Shown one piece after another: positions 11,985 through 18,656 of a DNA stretch of 27,257 nucleotides. The DNA is from a virus (lineage: Duplodnaviria; Heunggongvirae; Uroviricota; Caudoviricetes). Position numbers and translations under genes: made by a program. Location: IMG/VR virus record IMGVR_UViG_2513237251_000001; one strand, 5' to 3'. The notes beneath the pieces are model-generated. The model made no database searches and was not told the origin of the DNA. It saw only the letters and a list, made by a program, of their open reading frames with translations. Position 1 is the stretch's first letter; each line of letters opens with the position of its first letter.

Positions 11985-12030
11985 ATTCGTAATGCGAAGG
12001 TCGTAGGTTCGACTCCTATTATCGGCACCA
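11985..12030 (+). repeat. 46-bp direct repeat of the thrW 3' end (att core, distal junction of the first element)
   Basis: ATTCGTAATGCGAAGGTCGTAGGTTCGACTCCTATTATCGGCACCA is identical to thrW positions 1399-1444; the flank after CCA differs from that at 1445. Confidence 0.85.
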
Positions 12031-12529
12031 TCTCAACTTCCTCAAACGTCCGTATTAGTCCATAAAATCTCTGATTTATAACATTTTTTATTCTTTTAAG
12101 TCCATAGTAGTCCGTAACCATCCAGTAGAATCCGGTACTGAATGTGTATAGGATTGTGTATATGTTCCTGTTCGGTCTGGATTCCTATACACATGCCTTT
12201 AAACGATATGCAGATTCGCCGCGCTAAGCCTGAAGCTAAAGCCTATACATTTGGAGATGGGCTAGGGTTGTCATTACTTATAGAACCTAATGGAAGCAAG
12301 AGTTGGCGGTTCCGCTATCGCTATGCCGGCAAACCCAAAATGATCTCGCTTGGTGTTTACCCAACGATCACCCTTGCCGATGCTCGTTCCCGTCGTGATG
12401 AAGCTCGAAAACTTGTGGCAGAAGGAAAGAACCCTAGTGAGGTTCGAAAAGAGCAAAAGCTAGCTATGCAAACAGTGAACCGCCCCGGAAATCCTGGAGA
12501 CTAAACTCCCTGAGAAAGAGGTAAACAGG

Positions 12530-12856
12530 ATGACTAAAAATACTCGTTTTTCCCCCGAAGTCCGTCAGCGGGCGATTCGTATGGTTCTGGAAAGTCAGGA
12601 TGAATATGACTCACAGTGGGCGGCAATTTGTTCCATTGCCCCAAAGATTGGCTGTACGCCGGAGACTCTGCGTGTCTGGGTTCGCCAGCATGAGCGGGAT
12701 ACCGGGGGCGGTGATGGTGGGCTCACCAGCGCTGAACGTCAGCGTCTGAAAGAGCTGGAACGTGAAAATCGTGAACTGCGCCGCAGTAACGATATCCTTC
12801 GCCAGGCTTCCGCTTATTTTGCGAAGGCGGAGTTCGACCGCCTCTGGAAAAAATGA
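12530..12856 (+). CDS. IS3-family transposase OrfA (HTH)
   Basis: 108-aa [26 protein letters not shown]... with a leucine-zipper-like C-terminus; matches IS629/IS1203 OrfA as I remember it. Confidence 0.85.
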
Positions 12857-13743
12857 TGCCACTGCTGGATAAGCTGCGTGAGCAGTACGGGGTCGGACCG
12901 GTATGCAGCGAACTGCATATTGCCCCGTCAACGTATTACCATTGTCAGCAACAGCGACATCATCCGGATAAACGCAGTGCCCGTGCGCAGCACGACGACT
13001 GGCTGAAGAGAGAGATACAGCGCGTATACGATGAAAATCATCAGGTGTACGGTGTGCGTAAAGTCTGGCGTCAGTTGTTACGGGAAGGAATCAGGGTGGC
13101 CAGATGTACAGTGGCACGTCTCATGGCGGTTATGGGACTTGCCGGTGTTCTCCGGGGTAAAAAGGTCCGTACGACCATCAGCCGGAAAGCCGTTGCCGCA
13201 GGCGACCGCGTAAACCGTCAGTTCGTGGCAGAACGACCTGACCAGCTGTGGGTGGCTGATTTTACTTACGTCAGCACATGGCAGGGCTTCGTCTATGTGG
13301 CGTTTATCATTGATGTGTTTGCCGGATACATCGTGGGGTGGCGGGTCTCATCGTCTATGGAAACGACATTCGTGCTGGATGCGCTGGAGCAGGCGTTGTG
13401 GGCCCGTCGTCCGTCTGGCACCATCCATCACAGCGATAAAGGCTCTCAGTATGTGTCACTAGCCTATACGGAGCGACTAAAAGAAGCCGGATTACTGGCA
13501 TCAACAGGGAGTACAGGCGACTCGTATGACAACGCGATGGCTGAGAGCATCAATGGTCTTTACAAAGCGGAGGTAATACACCGTAAGAGCTGGAAAAACC
13601 GTGCAGAAGTGGAACTGGCCACACTAACGTGGGTGGACTGGTATAACAATCGACGATTGCTGGGAAGGCTGGGCCATGCTCCTCCGGCAGAAGCAGAAAA
13701 AGCTTATTATGCTTCCATCGGAAACGATGATCTGGCAGCCTGA
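12853..13743 (+). CDS. IS3-family transposase OrfB (DDE integrase core)
   Basis: 296-aa ORF in the -1 frame relative to orfA, with ...WVADFTYV...[10 protein letters not shown]...[15 protein letters not shown]...; A6 run at the orfA/orfB overlap fits programmed -1 frameshifting. Confidence 0.85.
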
Positions 13744-14692
13744 GTTCACAGATAAAACACTCTCCAGGAAACCCGGGGCGGTTCAAACAGAGTCAGAGAA
13801 CGCCTTCGAAAAGATAGCCAGAGAGTGGCATCAACTTAAATCTGCTAAATGGTCGGCGGGATATGCATCAGACATCATGGAAGCGTTTAAGAACGACATT
13901 TTTCCTTATGTCGGAACAAGGCCTGTGGGAGAGATTAAACCGCTAGAGCTGCTGAACGTTCTGCGTAAAATTGAGAAACGTGGTGCGTTGGAGAAAATGC
14001 GCAAAGTGCGGCAGCGTTGCTCCGAAGTGTTTCGCTACGCAATTGCAACGGGTAGGGCGGAGTACAATCCTGCGGCTGATCTCTCCAGCGCTCTCGAAGT
14101 ACACCAATCCAATCATTTCCCATTCCTAAAAGCTGATGAGATACCTGATTTTCTACGTGCCTTAGAGGGTTACTCCGGGAGTAAGCTTGTCCAGATAGCC
14201 ACGAAATTACTGATGATTACGGGTGTGAGAACCATCGAATTACGCGCGGCATTATGGCAAGAATTTGATCTGGATAACGCTATTTGGGAAATTCCTGCTG
14301 AAAGGATGAAAATGCGTAGGCCACATCTTGTGCCCTTATCATCTCAAGCGGTAGATTTACTCAATGAACTCAAGATCATGACAGGGAACTATCGTTATGT
14401 TTTTCCAGGGCGGAACGATCCGAATAGGCCAATGAGCGAAGCGAGTATAAATCAAGCCATTAAGCGTATTGGGTATGGAGGAAAAGTCACTGGACATGGT
14501 TTTCGTCATACCCTTTCTACAATCCTGCATGAGCAAGGTTTTGAGAGTGCTTGGATTGAAATCCAGTTGGCTCATGTAGATAAAAATTCTATTAGGGGGA
14601 CTTATAACCATGCTCAATATTTTAGTGGAAGGAAGTCTATGATGGACTGGTACAGTAATTTGATATTTGAAAGACTAAAAAGGAGTTAATTT

Positions 14693-15109
14693 GTGTCTCA
14701 ACCACTTTCGGAAATATTGACATGGGATGATGAACAATGGGAGGTATTTGTCCATGATTGGCTTATTGTCTGTAAATCAGATGATTACCCGTGGAGCGAA
14801 CGTTTGGGAGGAGCTGGAGATAAAGGTAGAGACGTTGTTGGATATAAATCGGATCCTAACGTAGAAGGTTATTCTTGGGATAATTATCAATGCAAACTGT
14901 ACAAAAAAAGTTTAGGGTTCTCTGATGTTGTAGTTGAGTTTGGAAAACTTATCTATTTTACTCTGAATGGTGATTATCCCATCCCTCAGAAGTACTTTTT
15001 TGTGGCACCCTATGATTTATCTACTACATTTTCTAATTTATTGAAAAATAAAAACGAGCTTAAAAAAGCAGTCCTTGATTCATGGGATTCAGCAATTTCA
15101 AAAAAATAA
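14693..15109 (+). CDS. Mrr-like (PD-(D/E)xK type) restriction-endonuclease-domain protein; possible N-terminal part of a Lamassu LmuA-like effector
   Basis: 138-aa ORF, GTG start 7 nt after AGGAG, 3 bp after the integrase stop; motifs GGAGDKGRDVVGY and YQCKLYKK match the Mrr catalytic signature (D-G-x-D ... Q-x-K); ends inside an A7 tract. Confidence 0.55.
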   Translation: MSQPLSEILTWDDEQWEVFVHDWLIVCKSDDYPWSERLGGAGDKGRDVVGYKSDPNVEGYSWDNYQCKLYKKSLGFSDVVVEFGKLIYFTLNGDYPIPQKYFFVAPYDLSTTFSNLLKNKNELKKAVLDSWDSAISKK

Positions 15110-15699
15110 CTAAAAAGATTGATATTCCATTAGATGATGAAATAAAAAAATATATTGAGGATTTTGATTTTAGTATTTTTTACTCTCTACCCTTATCATT
15201 GATTTTAAATGATATTGCAAATACACACCTTTATTTTAAGTACTTTAACGAGCTGTATGTCGTGAGAATCCCTCCAAATGAAATTCCAACATACAATTCA
15301 AAAAAAGAGTCTGTATATGTTAATGCACTGCTTCAAGCCTATTCAGAGCATGGAAATAAAACTTATAGTTCTTTCTTAGAGCTTGATGATCCATACAGAC
15401 GACACTTTAATAATAGTAGAAATGATTTTTATTTTGCATCTTCGCTTGAGGTTTTTGTCCGCGAAGTATTTAAAGATGATGTATTCAAAGCATTGAAATG
15501 TTACATTTCATCTTCAATTGAACCCGTCTTTTATGAAGACCATAATTATGCATTTATTAGGTGTAATGCAGTCTTGAAGCAGGCTGTTCTGACACCAATT
15601 GCACATTCAGTACTATCAAAAATATGTGAAGCAAATGATAAAAAAGGAATATGCCATCATTTGGTTAATGATGGTGAAGTAATTTGGACGGTGAGATAA
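15082..15699 (+). CDS. hypothetical protein; would be the C-terminal part of the preceding ORF after a 1-nt shift in the A7 tract
   Basis: 205-aa AT-rich ORF overlapping the previous ORF by 28 nt in another frame; one extra A in 15095-15101 fuses the two into a ~335-aa protein. Confidence 0.5.
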   Translation: MGFSNFKKITKKIDIPLDDEIKKYIEDFDFSIFYSLPLSLILNDIANTHLYFKYFNELYVVRIPPNEIPTYNSKKESVYVNALLQAYSEHGNKTYSSFLELDDPYRRHFNNSRNDFYFASSLEVFVREVFKDDVFKALKCYISSSIEPVFYEDHNYAFIRCNAVLKQAVLTPIAHSVLSKICEANDKKGICHHLVNDGEVIWTVR

Positions 15700-16157
15700 T
15701 GGTTAGAATTTATAATTCAAGTTTAGAAGTGGCATGTCGAATGGCGAAAGTGCTCGTCGCTATTTATCCTTCTTCATTAAGCCTTGAACGGCTTATTTGT
15801 TTTGATTTTATTTTAGTAAATCTTAAGGATTTTTTACCTGAAGAGATTAGTCTTCATCCTCCAATACCCCGTAGAGATGCTCAGTTAGCCCTAAAACGAG
15901 AGATTGTTTTAGAATCATTGGCTTTGTTGCAAGGCTATGAACTAGCCTCAAAAATTTATACACATCGTGGTTTTGTATATAAAGCTTCTGAAAAAACATA
16001 TGCATTTACAAATTCTCTACATAATGAATATGTTGCGCAGATGGAGCATAATATAAATTTGGTGGTTAAGTTATATAGTGATATTCCTGATGAGCAGTTG
16101 CAATCAATTATAAAAAATAAAATTGGCAAATATGATATGGAATTTAATTATGAATGA
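15699..16157 (+). CDS. small hypothetical protein (LmuC/middle-component-like position)
   Basis: 152-aa ORF whose ATG overlaps the upstream stop (TAATG) and whose stop overlaps the next ATG (ATGAATGA), indicating translational coupling. Confidence 0.5.
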   Translation: MVRIYNSSLEVACRMAKVLVAIYPSSLSLERLICFDFILVNLKDFLPEEISLHPPIPRRDAQLALKREIVLESLALLQGYELASKIYTHRGFVYKASEKTYAFTNSLHNEYVAQMEHNINLVVKLYSDIPDEQLQSIIKNKIGKYDMEFNYE

Positions 16158-16782
16158 CAATTTTTTTACGTTCAGAAAAATAAAGGTAACCGGATTCAAT
16201 AAATTAGATGCTATAATTGAATTTGGTTCTAAATTGACTATTTTATATGGTGGTTCTGACTCTGGAAAAACATACATATATTATTTGATTCGATATTTAT
16301 TAGGGAGTGAAAAACTAAAAAATAAAGATATCGATCATGCTCAAGGTTATGATTTAGCCTATCTGGAATTTAATTTTCAAGGTAGGGTAATGACAATTGA
16401 GAGGTCTCTTCAGGATAGCGCCCATTACAGATTATATGATTCGAGCATTGAAAATGTTAGTGAAGCTAATCTGTTGATGGTTTTTTCCAAAAGTGCTTCG
16501 TCTAAAAAGAGTTTTTCATCATACTTTTATGGTAGGTTGAATTTCAAAGAGGCTAAAGTAAGAACAAACTTAAGTAATACTCTTCATAAATTTAATCTTA
16601 ATAATGTTTTTGAATTTTTTTGTATTGATGAATTAAGAGTGTTAACTGAGAAGTCGTTAATTCTTTCTGATATTCCTAGCGAGGAGACAAAAAGAAAGTC
16701 TGAATTTAAATTCCTTTTAACTCAGAGAGATGATACTAACTCCTTAGCAGAAAAACCAAATAAAAAAGCAAGATATTTTTAA
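16150..16782 (+). CDS. SMC/ABC-type ATPase, N-terminal Walker A segment (LmuB-like), ending at an in-frame TAA
   Basis: MNDNFFTFRKIKVTGFNKLDAIIEFGSKLTILYGGSDSGKTYIY has the RecF/RecN/SMC-like N-terminal layout with P-loop GGSDSGKT; the frame stays open after the TAA at 16780-16782. Confidence 0.55.
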   Translation: MNDNFFTFRKIKVTGFNKLDAIIEFGSKLTILYGGSDSGKTYIYYLIRYLLGSEKLKNKDIDHAQGYDLAYLEFNFQGRVMTIERSLQDSAHYRLYDSSIENVSEANLLMVFSKSASSKKSFSSYFYGRLNFKEAKVRTNLSNTLHKFNLNNVFEFFCIDELRVLTEKSLILSDIPSEETKRKSEFKFLLTQRDDTNSLAEKPNKKARYF

Positions 16783-16812
16783 AAAAATCAAATTGCAAAT
16801 ATTTATGAGGAA

Positions 16813-17403
16813 TTGAAAGCGCAATTAATTTATCCTGAATATGATCAAGTCATTGTTTCAAGAGAACTTGAGAAAGTAGAGCAAGATATTGAATCATCGA
16901 AAGATATATTGAAAGGTATTGTTGATGCACTTGATGATAAGAAGCAATTATTAAAAGAGTTAAGTGATGAATTATATTCAATCAGTGACAGGGAAAAATA
17001 CTTATCATTACTCATTGAAAGATTTAGTCTTCTTAAAGACCAATACTTTATAGATCTACAAAGAATAGATGTTGTATCACAGGCGAATTTCTATTTAAAT
17101 AATTTTGCAGATATTTATTGTGAGTTCTGTAATACACCGCAAAAAAAAGAAAATGAAATATCATATGATGATTGTTTTTTGTCGTGTAATGCAGAAAAAT
17201 TGAAAATCAAAAGCCAGCTGAAAGGATTAATTGAATCAATCGGATCTAATGTTCGCGAACATGAATTAATTATGTTAAGAAAAAATGATGTTAATGAAAT
17301 TTATCAATCAGAAAAAAGTGATTTTAAGACGTTAGAAGATAAAAATATAAAACAATACATTCATCTCTTGAATCACTTTATGAATATAAAGACAATCTTT
17401 TAA
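16813..17403 (+). CDS. coiled-coil segment of the same SMC/ABC-type ATPase (same frame as the preceding ORF)
   Basis: 196-aa ORF in the same frame as 16150..16782, separated only by the single TAA; E/K/L-rich heptad-like sequence as in SMC/Rad50 coiled-coil inserts; the annotated start is a TTG. Confidence 0.5.
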   Translation: MKAQLIYPEYDQVIVSRELEKVEQDIESSKDILKGIVDALDDKKQLLKELSDELYSISDREKYLSLLIERFSLLKDQYFIDLQRIDVVSQANFYLNNFADIYCEFCNTPQKKENEISYDDCFLSCNAEKLKIKSQLKGLIESIGSNVREHELIMLRKNDVNEIYQSEKSDFKTLEDKNIKQYIHLLNHFMNIKTIF

Positions 17404-17969
17404 TGGATCACACAAAACATAGCATTCTATCTTCATTACAAGATAAAGAAGATGATGTTGACGAACTTAAATACTCCGCCGAGGACTTTGACTCCTTAAC
17501 AGTAGCTGATTTGTATGATATAGAAATAGCGATGCAAGACTTTTTGAATGATATAAATTTTGAAAATTCTAAAGATAACAAAGTGCGATTTGACGAAGAT
17601 ACATATGACTTTAATATCAATGGGAAACGCCGAGGAATGTTTGGTAAAGGTACCCGTGCAGTAATGCATGCTATATTTACCATTTGCTTTGCGGAATTTT
17701 TATCAAGAAAAGGGAATCCATTCATTGGATTTGTTGTGCTTGATAGTCCATTAGTGACGCACTTTGATAAAGATAGAGGGGGTTCTCTATCGGATGTTAA
17801 TAGCGTCAGTCTCAGTGATTCATTTTATCACGCATTAATCAAAAGGGACTATAATTTCCAGATTGTAATTCTTGAGAATAAAGGTCCGACGTTCCAAATA
17901 AAAATTAATGATGCAAATAAAATCCATAACTTAAATAAGAATGGAAGCTCTGGTTTTTATCCTGTTTAA
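17403..17969 (+). CDS. C-terminal segment of SMC/ABC-type ATPase (Walker B-like FIGFVVLDSP)
   Basis: 188-aa ORF with ATG overlapping the previous stop (TAATG); GMFGKGTRAVMHAIFTICFAEF followed by FIGFVVLDSPLVTHFD resembles a signature/Walker B/H-loop region; the frame is open upstream to 17343. Confidence 0.5.
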   Translation: MDHTKHSILSSLQDKEDDVDELKYSAEDFDSLTVADLYDIEIAMQDFLNDINFENSKDNKVRFDEDTYDFNINGKRRGMFGKGTRAVMHAIFTICFAEFLSRKGNPFIGFVVLDSPLVTHFDKDRGGSLSDVNSVSLSDSFYHALIKRDYNFQIVILENKGPTFQIKINDANKIHNLNKNGSSGFYPV

Positions 17970-18378
17970 TACATTAAAAATATAACTGCTAATTGGGGTG
18001 CTCGAAATTATATTTCGTTTCGAGCGCTCAGTTCATTTCTAAATAATTTGCAAAATTATTTTGGGTACTTTCGCCTCTACACTTCCTTCGGGTGGTTCCA
18101 CAATAATGGATCTCACCGGCGTTTGATATTTTATAATCTAACCCCTTAGCGCGCGCAGCCCCCCACGCCTGCTCGCTTCGCTTAACAGACTGGTTTTCAT
18201 GCATTCCGCAAATCGTCTCAGAAGCCACCACACAAGGGCTTTCGCGTCAAAAATGGTGCATGAGAATCATGCGTTTTCATGCGCTATAGACATGCACTCA
18301 TGCGCTCTCAGGCCAGCCAGGGAAAAGGCGTAAAAAATCCCAGTACTGGACCGGGATTACGTGGGCTTTTTTTGCTAA

Positions 18379-18651
18379 TCAGACAGGAATTTGCTGACGG
18401 CTTGACAGCTTTGACGCGGAGCCATAGCGATTGAGAGTTTGCTGTTGTTTTTCCGGCATTTGTGCTTTCTCTGATTCCTGTTCATTGCGCCGGGGCTTCA
18501 TGATTATCGTATCCACACTTTCCAGTGCGGTAAATGTGTAGGAACATTCAAGATTCTGGCACTGATACCATGAGCGTTTAACCGATGGTGCTTCATAGGC
18601 GGAGGTTCTGGCGTGTGCCGTCGTACCGCATTCGGGACATTTAAGTGCCAT
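18379..18651 (-). CDS. Ogr/Delta-family zinc-finger late transcription activator
   Basis: 90-aa ORF MALKCPECGTTAHARTSAYEAPSVKRSWYQCQNLECSYTFTALESV with the C-x2-C...C-x4-C spacing and AHARTS/YQCQN motifs of P2 Ogr / P4 Delta. Confidence 0.85.
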   Translation of the reverse strand: MALKCPECGTTAHARTSAYEAPSVKRSWYQCQNLECSYTFTALESVDTIIMKPRRNEQESEKAQMPEKQQQTLNRYGSASKLSSRQQIPV

Positions 18652-18656
18652 TAATA

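What the first reader, a model, noticed from the sequence alone, without database searches (positions are those of the whole stretch)
14693..17969. AT-rich nuclease plus SMC/ABC-ATPase cassette (Lamassu/ABC-3C-like) in the integrase-proximal cargo slot of a P4-like satellite
Six tightly packed same-strand ORFs begin 3 bp after the P4-type integrase stop and end before the delta/psu/sid genes. This is the interval where P4 itself carries cII/beta/gop and where P4-like satellites are reported to carry anti-phage cargo. The first ORF has a Mrr-type catalytic signature (GGAGDKGRDVVGY ... YQCKLYKK). The last three ORFs together read as one SMC/RecN-like ABC ATPase: a Walker A N-terminus (GGSDSGKT), a ~200-aa heptad-rich coiled coil, and a C-terminal FIGFVVLDSP Walker B-like region. 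A small translationally coupled ORF sits between. The layout (nuclease effector, small middle protein, SMC-like ATPase of about 600 aa) matches the Lamassu family, but that assignment is my inference from motifs, not a search result. Base composition is visibly far more AT-rich than the flanks (judged by eye).
Basis: partly seen in the sequence, partly recalled or inferred. Interest (0 to 1): 0.85.

Follow-up and report, generated by a model that had tools for sequence, protein, structure and literature searches.

The report
Broken Lamassu defence cassette in O157 satellite
The six ORFs are the mutated remains of a three-gene Lamassu anti-phage system (nuclease LmuA, small LmuC, SMC-like ATPase LmuB) in the P4-like element Sp2 of E. 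coli O157:H7; the locus is already annotated and published, so it is real but ordinary.

Summary
Window 14693-17969 holds six same-strand ORFs at about 31% GC. They start 3 bp after the integrase stop and end before delta/psu/sid. The stretch is 100% identical to E. coli O157:H7 Sakai prophage-like element Sp2 (ECs_0290-0293).

Profile searches confirm the Lamassu reading. ORF1+ORF2 match LmuA, with a Mrr-type nuclease motif and an ABC-3C CTD6 domain. ORF3 is an intact LmuC (MC2). ORF4+5+6 match a short, roughly 600-aa LmuB.

Three lesions break the system:
- a 1-nt deletion in an A-run in lmuA (A8 to A7, 15100-15106);
- a TTA-to-TAA nonsense codon in lmuB (16780-16782), seen in O157 but not in the O55:H7 copy examined;
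- a 1-nt deletion in lmuB (A6 to A5, 17341-17345).

Intact co-linear orthologues (335, 152 and 606 aa) exist in Pantoea, in a P4-like satellite at the same slot, and in Proteus. None of about 308 complete E. coli genomes carrying the cassette has either frameshift repaired. Sub-lineages add further indels and IS insertions.

The cassette was published in 2024 as "Lamassu-var", tested as the O55:H7 allele, with a weak phenotype. That paper does not mention the fragmentation.

Verdict: an already known, recently pseudogenised Lamassu-Mrr relic.

The parts
12193..14689 (+). P4-type tyrosine integrase intS of Sp2. In this window it is split by an IS629/IS1203 insertion.
   Evidence: Pfam Arm-DNA-bind_3, Phage_int_M and Phage_integrase on the two halves. 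The gene is an intact 393-aa ORF in Sakai. Comparison with Sakai places the insertion.
12476..13783 (+). IS3-family element IS629/IS1203 (orfA 12530-12856, orfB 12853-13743) inserted in intS. The boundaries are uncertain by a few bp because of the target duplication.
   Evidence: Pfam HTH_Tnp_1 and rve. The window is identical to Sakai on both sides of a roughly 1308-bp insert.
14680..14685 (+). AAGGAG Shine-Dalgarno sequence for lmuA, embedded in the last integrase codons 7 nt before the GTG start.
   Evidence: Read directly from the sequence. The same arrangement is conserved in the Pantoea and Proteus copies.
14693..15109 (+). lmuA fragment 1: N-terminal Mrr-type PD-(D/E)xK nuclease domain with the motif GDKGRD...QCK. 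It ends at a premature TAA caused by the frameshift.
   Evidence: PADLOC LmuA PDLC03852 E=9e-41, model positions 10-140. Pfam Mrr_cat reaches only E=0.2. G42, D43, G45, D47, Q66 and K68 are invariant in 57 homologues.
15100..15106 (+). A7 tract: site of the 1-nt deletion that splits lmuA. The ancestral state is 8 bases (AAAGAAAA in Pantoea, AATAAAA context in Proteus).
   Evidence: DNA alignments with L007, L008 and L009 each show exactly one missing base here. The repaired protein aligns end to end with intact homologues.
15082..15699 (+). lmuA fragment 2: helical C-terminal domain (ABC-3C CTD6). Homology to LmuA begins at about 15109.
   Evidence: Pfam CTD6 E=7.7e-30. PADLOC LmuA model positions 141-333, E=3.9e-44.
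15699..16157 (+). lmuC (ABC-3C middle component 2), an intact 152-aa ORF. Its ATG overlaps the lmuA stop (TAATG).
   Evidence: Pfam MC2 E=6e-30. PADLOC LmuC PDLC03871 E=2.5e-36. The length equals that of the intact orthologues.
16150..16782 (+). lmuB fragment 1: N-terminal ATPase head with Walker A GGSDSGKT. It ends at a TAA nonsense codon (16780-16782) that is TTA (Leu) in the O55:H7 copy, in Proteus and in locus L014.
   Evidence: PADLOC LmuB PDLC03863 model positions 3-199, E=8e-50. SNP comparison. L211 is invariant in the LmuB alignment.
16783..17403 (+). lmuB fragment 2: coiled coil with a CxxC hook (CEFC). It is in the same frame as fragment 1 and runs into a stop after the frameshift.
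   Evidence: PADLOC LmuB model positions 231-412, E=1.6e-21. C324 and C327 are invariant.
17341..17345 (+). A5 tract: site of the 1-nt deletion (A6 in Proteus) that frameshifts lmuB.
   Evidence: One base is missing relative to L007, L008 and L009. The repaired stretch LEDKKYKTIHSSLESLYEYKDNLLMD matches the Proteus sequence LEGKKYKKIHLLLESLYEYKDNLLMD.
17403..17969 (+). lmuB fragment 3: descending coil and C-terminal ATPase head, with Walker B FVVLDS and the H-loop THFD. The frame is open from about 17346.
   Evidence: PADLOC LmuB model positions 428-608, E=5e-37. Pfam DUF3732 E=5e-5, sub-threshold. Three-frame translation.
17996..18029 (+). Terminator-like hairpin (13-bp stem) after lmuB.
   Evidence: Consensus scan only.
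18379..19957 (-). Satellite late genes sid-like (19205-19957), psu (18657-19208) and delta (18379-18651), which bound the cargo slot.
   Evidence: Pfam Ogr_Delta and Psu. PHROG Psu-like families.

Best explanation
The interval is a recently pseudogenised short-type Lamassu system with a Mrr-type nuclease effector, in gene order lmuA-lmuC-lmuB. It occupies the integrase-proximal cargo slot of the divergent P4-like satellite Sp2 of the E. coli O55:H7/O157:H7 lineage.

How the ancestral intact form worked is inferred from the family, not shown here. A LmuB dimer with LmuC holds monomeric LmuA through its C-terminal domain. On sensing DNA ends or phage replication intermediates, and with ATP hydrolysis, the complex releases LmuA. 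LmuA then oligomerises and cuts DNA indiscriminately, which aborts the infection.

In this window that mechanism is disabled. A 1-nt deletion in an A-run separates the LmuA nuclease domain from the domain that docks it to LmuB and LmuC. LmuB is cut into three pieces by a nonsense codon and a second A-run deletion. Only lmuC is intact. The cassette is most likely a non-functional relic drifting neutrally in a clonal lineage.
For: Identity of the system:
- PADLOC LmuA, LmuC and LmuB models match each fragment in co-linear order, and match the repaired proteins end to end (E=8e-89 and 4.7e-117).
- Pfam gives CTD6 and MC2.
- An AF2 model of a 67%-identical LmuA homologue (pLDDT 93.8) has solved Lamassu LmuA chains (9nxx, 9hqx, 9ny1) as its best PDB matches, followed by Cap4, MspJI and FokI nucleases.
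- LmuB has Walker A Gx4GKT, Walker B VVLDS, a CxxC motif and a length of 606 aa. These are the features of short Lamassu given in PMC12663957.

The lesions:
- Three intact orthologous cassettes (Proteus mirabilis, 89% nt identity; Pantoea alhagi and a Logan contig, 79% nt) encode 335, 152 and 606 aa. They differ in length from the window by exactly one base at 15100-15106 and one at 17341-17345. They carry TTA or CTG where the window has TAA.

Decay:
- The history before the lesions shows purifying selection: dN/dS about 0.1, with 81 synonymous and 44 non-synonymous changes on the E. coli branch.
- The eight O55-versus-O157 substitutions are 1 synonymous and 7 non-synonymous (Fisher p=0.005).
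- Sub-lineages carry further indels at 14736, 15640, 16615, 16689, 17141 and 17311/17312. Some have IS insertions in lmuB or partial deletions.

The mechanism of the family is taken from PMC12663957 and the Millman et al. preprint.
Against: - The O55:H7 allele was cloned in PMC11754643 and reduced plaque size of T-even phages. Some activity of the fragmented cassette, or of something else on the 4-kb insert, is therefore reported.
- All catalytic motifs are still intact in the fragments.
- One strain lineage (L027) has TAA changed to AAA, which reopens the frame.
- The exact repaired LmuA sequence (335 aa) occurs on 434 contigs of the large protein collection, so A8 alleles or assemblies exist somewhere.
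- Nothing here measures expression or activity.
Confidence: 0.8

Rival explanations
1. The cassette is a split but still functional Lamassu variant. The separately translated pieces (nuclease domain, CTD, LmuC, and two or three LmuB fragments) assemble non-covalently and give weak defence. This is how the literature treats 'Lamassu-var'.
For: - PMC11754643 reports smaller T2, T4, T6 and RB69 plaques with the O55:H7 allele.
- The motifs are intact.
- The TAATG overlap at 17401-17405 looks like translational coupling.
- A TAA-to-AAA change in L027 reopens the lmuB frame.
Against: - All relatives outside this lineage that were examined in full have single 335-aa and 606-aa ORFs.
- The cloned insert begins exactly at the lmuA GTG (CP038295 position 4120474). 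It therefore lacks the Shine-Dalgarno sequence and any native promoter. The effect was seen only at the highest dilutions.
- O157 carries an extra nonsense codon, and the next in-frame start is a TTG.
- The substitution pattern after the lesions is 7 non-synonymous to 1 synonymous, and further indels and IS hits accumulate.
- In the published mechanism the CTD tethers the effector to LmuB and LmuC. A nuclease domain detached from its CTD cannot be sequestered or released.
Confidence: 0.12
2. The A7 tract in lmuA is a programmed or contingency switch. Either -1 ribosomal frameshifting or transcriptional slippage on A AAA AAA, or heritable A7/A8 phase variation, produces full-length LmuA in a fraction of cells.
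For: - The 0-frame heptamer A_AAA_AAA sits directly before the stop, and a -1 shift enters the CTD frame.
- The exact repaired 335-aa protein is recorded on 434 contigs.
Against: - None of about 300 complete genomes that cover the tract has A8.
- Intact orthologues have interrupted, non-slippery codons at this site (AAG AAA ATA and AAT AAA ATA).
- No stable RNA structure follows the tract: MFE -5.9 kcal/mol, z=+1.0.
- lmuB remains broken at sites that are not slippery heptamers, so a restored LmuA would lack its partner.
- The 434 contigs could be homopolymer assembly errors among tens of thousands of O157 assemblies. They could not be inspected.
Confidence: 0.06
3. The frameshifts are sequencing or assembly artefacts, and the real genes are intact.
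For: Two of the three lesions lie in homopolymer runs, where sequencing errors are common.
Against: - The same A7 and A5 states occur in about 300 independently sequenced complete genomes from many laboratories and platforms, including Sakai.
- The third lesion is a base substitution.
- RefSeq already flags ECs_0293 as a pseudogene.
Confidence: 0.01

Closest known systems
'Lamassu-var' of the Domainator paper (PMC11754643, NAR 2024), cloned from E. coli O55:H7 TB182A, CP038295 4116517-4120474
   Same: It is the same locus. The CP038295 region carries the same gene set and the same protein accessions as the O55:H7 copy, which is 99.7% identical to the window. The paper reports it as the most frequent cluster (259 of 910) between Psu and integrase genes in E. 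coli genomes.
   Different: - The tested O55 allele lacks the O157 TAA nonsense codon but has an extra 1-nt deletion at 17312.
- The paper treats it as a functional variant and does not mention frameshifts or pseudogenes.
- Here it is shown to be a fragmented copy of an otherwise canonical three-gene system.
Lamassu-Mrr (expanded Lamassu family; Millman et al. preprint 10.1101/2022.05.11.491447, system from E. coli O150:H5 SE15)
   Same: The architecture is the same: an LmuA with a Mrr-family endonuclease N-domain, plus LmuC and the SMC-like LmuB. In that study defence was abortive and needed the ATPase, the effector and lmuC.
   Different: - There is no nucleotide-level relative of the window cassette in E. 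coli outside the O55/O157 lineage, so the SE15 system is a distant relative at best. The two proteins were not compared directly.
- The window copy is broken.
- Pfam Mrr_cat is sub-threshold for this LmuA.
Vibrio cholerae DdmABC / Lamassu Vc-Cap4 and Salmonella Lamassu (solved structures 9nxx, 9ny1, 9ny5, 9hqx, 9uxl)
   Same: - It is a short Lamassu with a LmuB of about 600 aa.
- LmuA has two domains, a PD-(D/E)xK-type nuclease and a helical CTD. The solved LmuA chains are the best structural matches to the modelled homologue.
- The inferred mechanism is taken from this system.
   Different: - The effector is Mrr-type, not Cap4.
- Sequence similarity to solved chains is undetectable.
- This LmuB has a CxxC hook motif, which Vc-Cap4 lacks.
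ABC-3C (ABC three-component) systems, Pfam CTD6 / MC2 / DUF3732
   Same: The effector CTD matches PF20282 and the middle component matches PF20288, both above threshold. RefSeq names the proteins accordingly.
   Different: This is the same biological family under another name. DUF3732 reaches only 23.2 bits against a cut-off of 25.
P4 satellite integrase-proximal defence hotspot (Rousset et al. 2022, PMC9122126; gop-beta-cII in P4 itself)
   Same: The cassette sits in the same slot, between int and the psu/delta/sid genes of a P4-like element integrated at a tRNA gene (thrW).
   Different: - The satellite is divergent: Psu is about 31% identical to P4 Psu according to PMC11754643, and the gene order is sid-psu-delta.
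- The cargo is a pseudogenised system. The preprint 10.64898/2026.02.27.708500 reports that less than 1% of the pseudogenes detected in P4-like satellites resemble defence genes.

Membership tests
Lamassu (short type, LmuA-LmuC-LmuB) | LmuB: an SMC/Rad50-like ATPase of about 600 aa with Walker A Gx4GK[ST], a coiled coil and Walker B hhhhD[Q/S/T/E] | tested here: met
   The feature is met at the level of sequence homology. The repaired 606-aa sequence matches PADLOC LmuB PDLC03863 over model positions 3-608 of 610, E=4.7e-117. It has GGSDSGKT and FVVLDS. It aligns end to end with 606-609-aa homologues. Criteria are from PMC12663957. As encoded in the window, the gene is in three fragments.
Lamassu (short type, LmuA-LmuC-LmuB) | LmuC small subunit encoded in the operon | tested here: met
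   PADLOC LmuC PDLC03871 E=2.5e-36 and Pfam MC2 E=6e-30. The ORF is an intact 152 aa and overlaps both neighbouring genes.
Lamassu (short type, LmuA-LmuC-LmuB) | LmuA: an N-terminal effector domain fused to a conserved C-terminal domain that docks on LmuB and LmuC | tested here: met
   The repaired 335-aa sequence matches PADLOC LmuA PDLC03852 over model positions 10-333 of 336, E=8e-89, and Pfam CTD6. The model of homologue P0038 has solved LmuA chains as its best matches (E=9e-5, prob 1.00). In the window the two domains are separated by a frameshift.
Lamassu (short type, LmuA-LmuC-LmuB) | All three genes are intact, which published mutants show is needed for defence | tested here: not met
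   lmuA has one frameshift. lmuB has one nonsense codon and one frameshift. Millman et al. showed that ATPase, effector and lmuC are each required.
Lamassu (short type, LmuA-LmuC-LmuB) | Anti-phage (abortive infection) activity | not testable with these tools
   The only evidence is from the literature: a weak plaque-size effect of the O55 allele on T-even phages (PMC11754643).
Mrr-type restriction endonuclease domain (Pfam PF04471) | A match to Mrr_cat above Pfam's gathering score | tested here: not met
   ORF1 scores E=0.2, 12.2 bits against a cut-off of 21. The repaired protein gives no hit at E<=0.01. Only 7 of 57 family members reach E<=0.001, the best at 1.6e-6.
Mrr-type restriction endonuclease domain (Pfam PF04471) | Catalytic signature GDxGxD ... 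QxK on a PD-(D/E)xK fold | tested here: met
   The window has GDKGRD (residues 42-47) and QCK (66-68), all invariant in 57 homologues. The modelled N-domain of the homologue matches Cap4, MspJI and FokI nuclease domains. That this signature defines Mrr comes from my own knowledge of the family.
P4-like phage satellite | Core gene set (int, delta, psu, sid, alpA, primase alpha) integrated at a tRNA gene with att repeats | tested here: met
   Pfam Ogr_Delta, Psu (twice), Phage_ASH and a primase with Zn_Ribbon_Prim, Toprim_3 and D5_N. AlpA was called in identical loci. The thrW 3' end is repeated at 11985-12036 and 26226-26249. Sakai annotates the element as 'prophage Sp2, P4-like phage'.
P4-like phage satellite | A P2-type cos site and mobilisation by a helper phage | tested here: inconclusive
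   A 19-nt P2/P4 cos sequence recalled from memory gave no match with up to 3 mismatches. The recalled sequence may be wrong, or the helper phage may differ. The integrase is disrupted by IS629 in this window.

The most novel reading that the evidence does not exclude
The fragmented cassette is not dead. On this reading the lmuA A-tract toggles between A7 and A8 (the exact repaired 335-aa LmuA is on record on 434 contigs), or it is bypassed by slippage. Split LmuB pieces would then reassemble, giving a low-level or phase-variable Lamassu that explains the published weak T-even phenotype. That would be a natural example of a toxic abortive-infection effector held behind a homopolymer switch in a major pathogen clone.
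Probability: 0.1. Interest if true: 0.55.

Novelty: already known. Interest (0 to 1): 0.22.

Why it matters
The practical value is corrective.

- **The published variant is broken.** The most frequent "P4-like hotspot" system reported in E. coli genome collections is a frameshifted and nonsense-broken copy of an ordinary Lamassu-Mrr system. It is over-represented because O157:H7 is heavily sequenced. Intact orthologues exist in Pantoea and Proteus, so functional work should use those or a repaired allele.
- **It runs against a reported trend.** A recent preprint finds that less than 1% of pseudogenes in P4-like satellites resemble defence genes. Here a dead system has been carried by a successful clone rather than swapped out.
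- **Databases have absorbed the fragments.** PHROGs holds families whose lengths match the fragments exactly, and RefSeq names the pieces as separate proteins.

For O157:H7 biology, the result suggests that Sp2 no longer contributes Lamassu-type immunity.

Tried and rejected
- **NCBIfam** gave no significant family for any ORF.
- **Sequence search of PDB chains** with LmuB and LmuA profiles found only a marginal SMC head hit (E=0.0055) and nothing for LmuA. A structure model and Foldseek were used instead.
- **Distant-mode blastn in E. coli genomes** found no relatives beyond the lineage that is at least 99% identical.
- **A P2/P4 cos 19-mer recalled from memory** had no match. This is inconclusive.
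Look-ups through lmuC and lmuB fragment 3 returned only split-LmuA contexts.
- **The 'Lamassu variant' tested without effect in preprint 10.64898/2026.02.27.708500** might have been this cassette. Its synthesized sequence is an LmuBC-SMEK system and contains none of three window-specific strings, so it is not.
- **Programmed frameshifting** was considered and rated low. There is no downstream structure, orthologues are non-slippery at the site, and lmuB is broken in any case.
- **Sequencing artefact** was rejected, because the lesions are identical in about 300 complete genomes.

Full report
**1. What is in the sequence**

Window 14693-17969 holds six + strand ORFs of 138, 205, 152-157, 210-219, 196 and 188 aa. 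They overlap or abut one another. The first starts with GTG at 14693, 3 bp after the integrase stop at 14687-14689. An AAGGAG Shine-Dalgarno sequence lies inside the last integrase codons. A terminator-like hairpin follows the last ORF at 17996-18029.

Downstream on the minus strand lie delta, psu and a sid-like gene. GC is 0.27-0.37 inside the interval and 0.47-0.55 in the flanks.

The window is identical to E. coli O157:H7 Sakai across 4285-27100, the part compared. The one exception is a roughly 1.3-kb IS629/IS1203 insertion in the integrase at about 12476-13783. The interval corresponds to ECs_0290-0293 of the element Sakai annotates as "prophage Sp2, P4-like phage". ECs_0293 is already flagged there as a pseudogene.

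Sp2 lies between copies of the 3' end of thrW at 11985-12036 and 26226-26249. It sits directly after the lambda-like remnant Sp1.

**2. What the ORFs are**

PADLOC models place the six ORFs co-linearly on three Lamassu proteins:

| ORFs | Protein and model | Model positions covered | E-value |
|---|---|---|---|
| ORF1, ORF2 | LmuA, PDLC03852 (336 positions) | 10-140, 141-333 | 9e-41, 3.9e-44 |
| ORF3 | LmuC, PDLC03871 | whole protein | 2.5e-36 |
| ORF4, ORF5, ORF6 | LmuB, PDLC03863 (610 positions) | 3-199, 231-412, 428-608 | 8e-50, 1.6e-21, 5e-37 |

Pfam agrees. It gives the ABC-3C domains CTD6 (ORF2, E=8e-30) and MC2 (ORF3, E=6e-30), AAA_23/SMC_N for ORF4, and a sub-threshold DUF3732 hit for ORF6.

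- Mrr_cat scores E=0.2 on ORF1 and nothing on the repaired protein.
- The signature GDKGRD...QCK is invariant in 57 homologues.
- Seven of those homologues hit Mrr_cat at E<=0.001.
- An AlphaFold model of a 67%-identical homologue (pLDDT 93.8) finds solved Lamassu LmuA chains as its best PDB matches. Cap4, MspJI and FokI nuclease domains follow.

LmuB carries Walker A GGSDSGKT, Walker B FVVLDS, a CxxC hook motif and an H-loop. Its repaired length is 606 aa. These features match the "short Lamassu" class described in PMC12663957.

**3. The cassette is broken, and where**

Three orthologous cassettes were recovered:
- Proteus mirabilis (L007), 89% nucleotide identity;
- Pantoea alhagi (L008), 79%;
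- a Logan contig (L009), also 79%.

Each has uninterrupted genes of 335, 152 and 606 aa. Against each of them the window lacks exactly one base in the A-run at 15100-15106 and one in the A-run at 17341-17345. It also has TAA at 16780-16782 where they have TTA or CTG.

Inserting the two bases and reverting the stop yields proteins that align end to end with intact homologues. This includes the junction sequences (...DSAISKKITKKIDIPL... and ...LEDKKYKTIHSSLESLYEYKDNLLMD...) and the invariant L211.

The lmuA frameshift falls at about residue 137, near the end of a helix spanning residues 120-135 in the homologue model, and ahead of the CTD6 domain. It therefore separates the nuclease domain from the domain that tethers it to LmuB and LmuC. 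The lmuB lesions fall at codon 211, just past the N-terminal head-domain match, and at about codon 400, within the region between the two ATPase heads.

**4. Distribution and timing**

The cassette occurs in 309 of 5426 complete E. coli genomes. All copies are at least 99% identical, and the records sampled are O157:H7, O55:H7 or unserotyped strains. No more distant DNA relative exists in E. coli.

Queries carrying the repaired A8 or A6 tract find at best 99.5% identity in every genome. No complete genome has either frameshift repaired.

O55:H7 strains retain TTA at 16781 but have an extra deletion at 17312. The two A-run deletions are therefore ancestral to the lineage, and the nonsense codon arose later. 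L014-type strains still have TTA and otherwise differ from the window only by a synonymous change at 17432.

Long-term evolution against Proteus and Pantoea shows purifying selection, with dN/dS about 0.1. The E. coli branch has 81 synonymous and 44 non-synonymous changes, no different from the Proteus branch. In contrast, the eight O55-versus-O157 substitutions are 7 non-synonymous and 1 synonymous (Fisher p=0.005).

Sub-lineages add further damage:
- indels at 14736, 15640, 16615, 16689, 17141 and 17311/17312;
- IS629 insertions inside lmuB;
- partial deletions.

This is the pattern of a recently inactivated gene set drifting neutrally.

**5. How it works, or worked**

No step of the mechanism is shown here. 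It is inferred from the family.

In the Vibrio cholerae system a LmuA1-LmuB2-LmuC1 complex sequesters monomeric LmuA through its CTD. LmuB and LmuC recognise DNA ends or phage replication origins. With ATP hydrolysis LmuA is released and forms a tetramer that cleaves DNA non-specifically (PMC12663957). Lamassu systems with other effectors, including Mrr, defend by abortive infection and need the ATPase, the effector and lmuC (Millman et al. preprint).

The ancestral form of this cassette most likely worked the same way, with a Mrr-type nuclease. In the window, the nuclease is cut from its CTD and LmuB is in three pieces, so the canonical mechanism cannot operate. I put 0.8 on "non-functional relic".

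**6. Rival readings**

*Split but functional.* PMC11754643 cloned the O55:H7 allele (CP038295 4116517-4120474) and saw smaller T-even plaques at the highest dilutions. That region carries the same fragmented ORFs.

The insert begins exactly at the lmuA GTG. It therefore lacks the Shine-Dalgarno sequence and any upstream promoter, and the authors state that the plasmid has no promoter. It also includes delta. The paper does not mention frameshifts or pseudogenes. I give this reading 0.12.

*Programmed or phase-variable A7 tract.* The heptamer A_AAA_AAA before the stop would allow a -1 shift into the CTD frame. The exact repaired 335-aa LmuA is on record on 434 contigs.

Against this:
- no complete genome has A8;
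- orthologues are not slippery at the site;
- no downstream RNA structure exists;
- lmuB stays broken.

I give this 0.06.

*Sequencing artefact.* This is excluded by the number of independent genomes that carry the same lesions.

**7. Comparison with what is known, and novelty**

The family (Lamassu/ABC-3C), the Mrr-effector subtype, the P4 cargo hotspot concept (PMC9122126) and this very locus ("Lamassu-var", PMC11754643) are all published. RefSeq already names the pieces [quoted passage not shown]. The finding is therefore already known.

This analysis adds three points:
- "Lamassu-var" is a mutationally fragmented ordinary Lamassu-Mrr, with intact orthologues elsewhere.
- It is a retained defence pseudogene in a P4-like satellite. 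The preprint 10.64898/2026.02.27.708500 reports that less than 1% of the pseudogenes it detected in P4-like satellites resemble defence genes.
- The integrase and the Lamassu genes are far more conserved between the E. coli and Pantoea satellites than the rest of the backbone. The figures are int 92% and LmuA/C/B 87/82/76% aa identity, against 40-68% for psu, sid, delta and primase. In Proteus the cassette sits after an integrase pseudogene in a non-P4 island. This suggests that int and cargo move together as a module.

**8. Verdict**

The object is a known, decayed system, and its interest is low (0.22).

Noticed in passing
window 8890-9714 (-): An intact 274-aa ORF in the Sp1 lambda-like remnant matches the PADLOC defence protein PD-T4-3 (E=2.3e-140) and has a LEM-3-like GIY-YIG nuclease domain. 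It is an apparently intact known defence gene 5 kb upstream of the broken Lamassu.
   Followed up: partly
window 12476-13783: IS629/IS1203 is inserted in the Sp2 integrase gene. The insertion is absent from Sakai and from the other loci examined in this lineage. The satellite in this strain therefore has a disrupted integrase as well as a dead cargo.
   Followed up: yes
protein P0160 (exact repaired LmuA, 335 aa): The conceptually repaired LmuA sequence exists verbatim in the 15-billion-protein collection on 434 contigs, the longest 1.88 Mb. Yet none of about 300 complete E. coli genomes covering the tract has the A8 allele. These could be true revertants, phase variants or homopolymer assembly errors.
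   Followed up: partly
L027 (GCA_011898565.1) at the position equivalent to window 16780: One strain lineage (8 samples) has TAA changed to AAA. This reopens the lmuB reading frame to 417 aa, a pseudo-reversion of the O157 nonsense codon.
   Followed up: no
window versus L009 (Pantoea satellite) and L007 (Proteus island): The integrase (92% aa) and the Lamassu genes (76-87%) are much more conserved between the E. coli and Pantoea satellites than psu, sid, delta and primase (40-68%). In Proteus the cassette follows an integrase pseudogene (L007 7680-8536) in an island near smpB that has no P4 genes. int and cargo appear to travel as a unit.
   Followed up: partly
window 24726-25682 (-): A 318-aa ORF (ECs_0304 in Sakai) lies in a second AT-rich patch (29-39% GC, 24501-26500) at the right end of Sp2, after the primase gene. 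It has no Pfam, PADLOC or PHROG match and may be further cargo of unknown function.
   Followed up: partly
window 5132-5239: Five tandem copies of an 18-nt repeat (spacing 20-24 nt) lie inside the Sp1 replication-gene remnant. They look like lambda-type origin iterons.
   Followed up: no
window 15082-15699, 15699-16157, 17403-17969: PHROGs v4 contains 'unknown function' families whose profile lengths equal these ORFs exactly: phrog_22815 (205/205) and phrog_35073 (188/188) for two pseudogene fragments, and phrog_36943 (152/152) for the intact lmuC. Pseudogene pieces from this locus appear to have seeded database families.
   Followed up: no
window 1369-1444, 11985-12036, 26226-26249: tRNA-Thr(CGU) thrW lies at 1369-1444. 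Partial copies of its 3' end mark the tandem integration of Sp1 and Sp2 at the same att site.
   Followed up: yes
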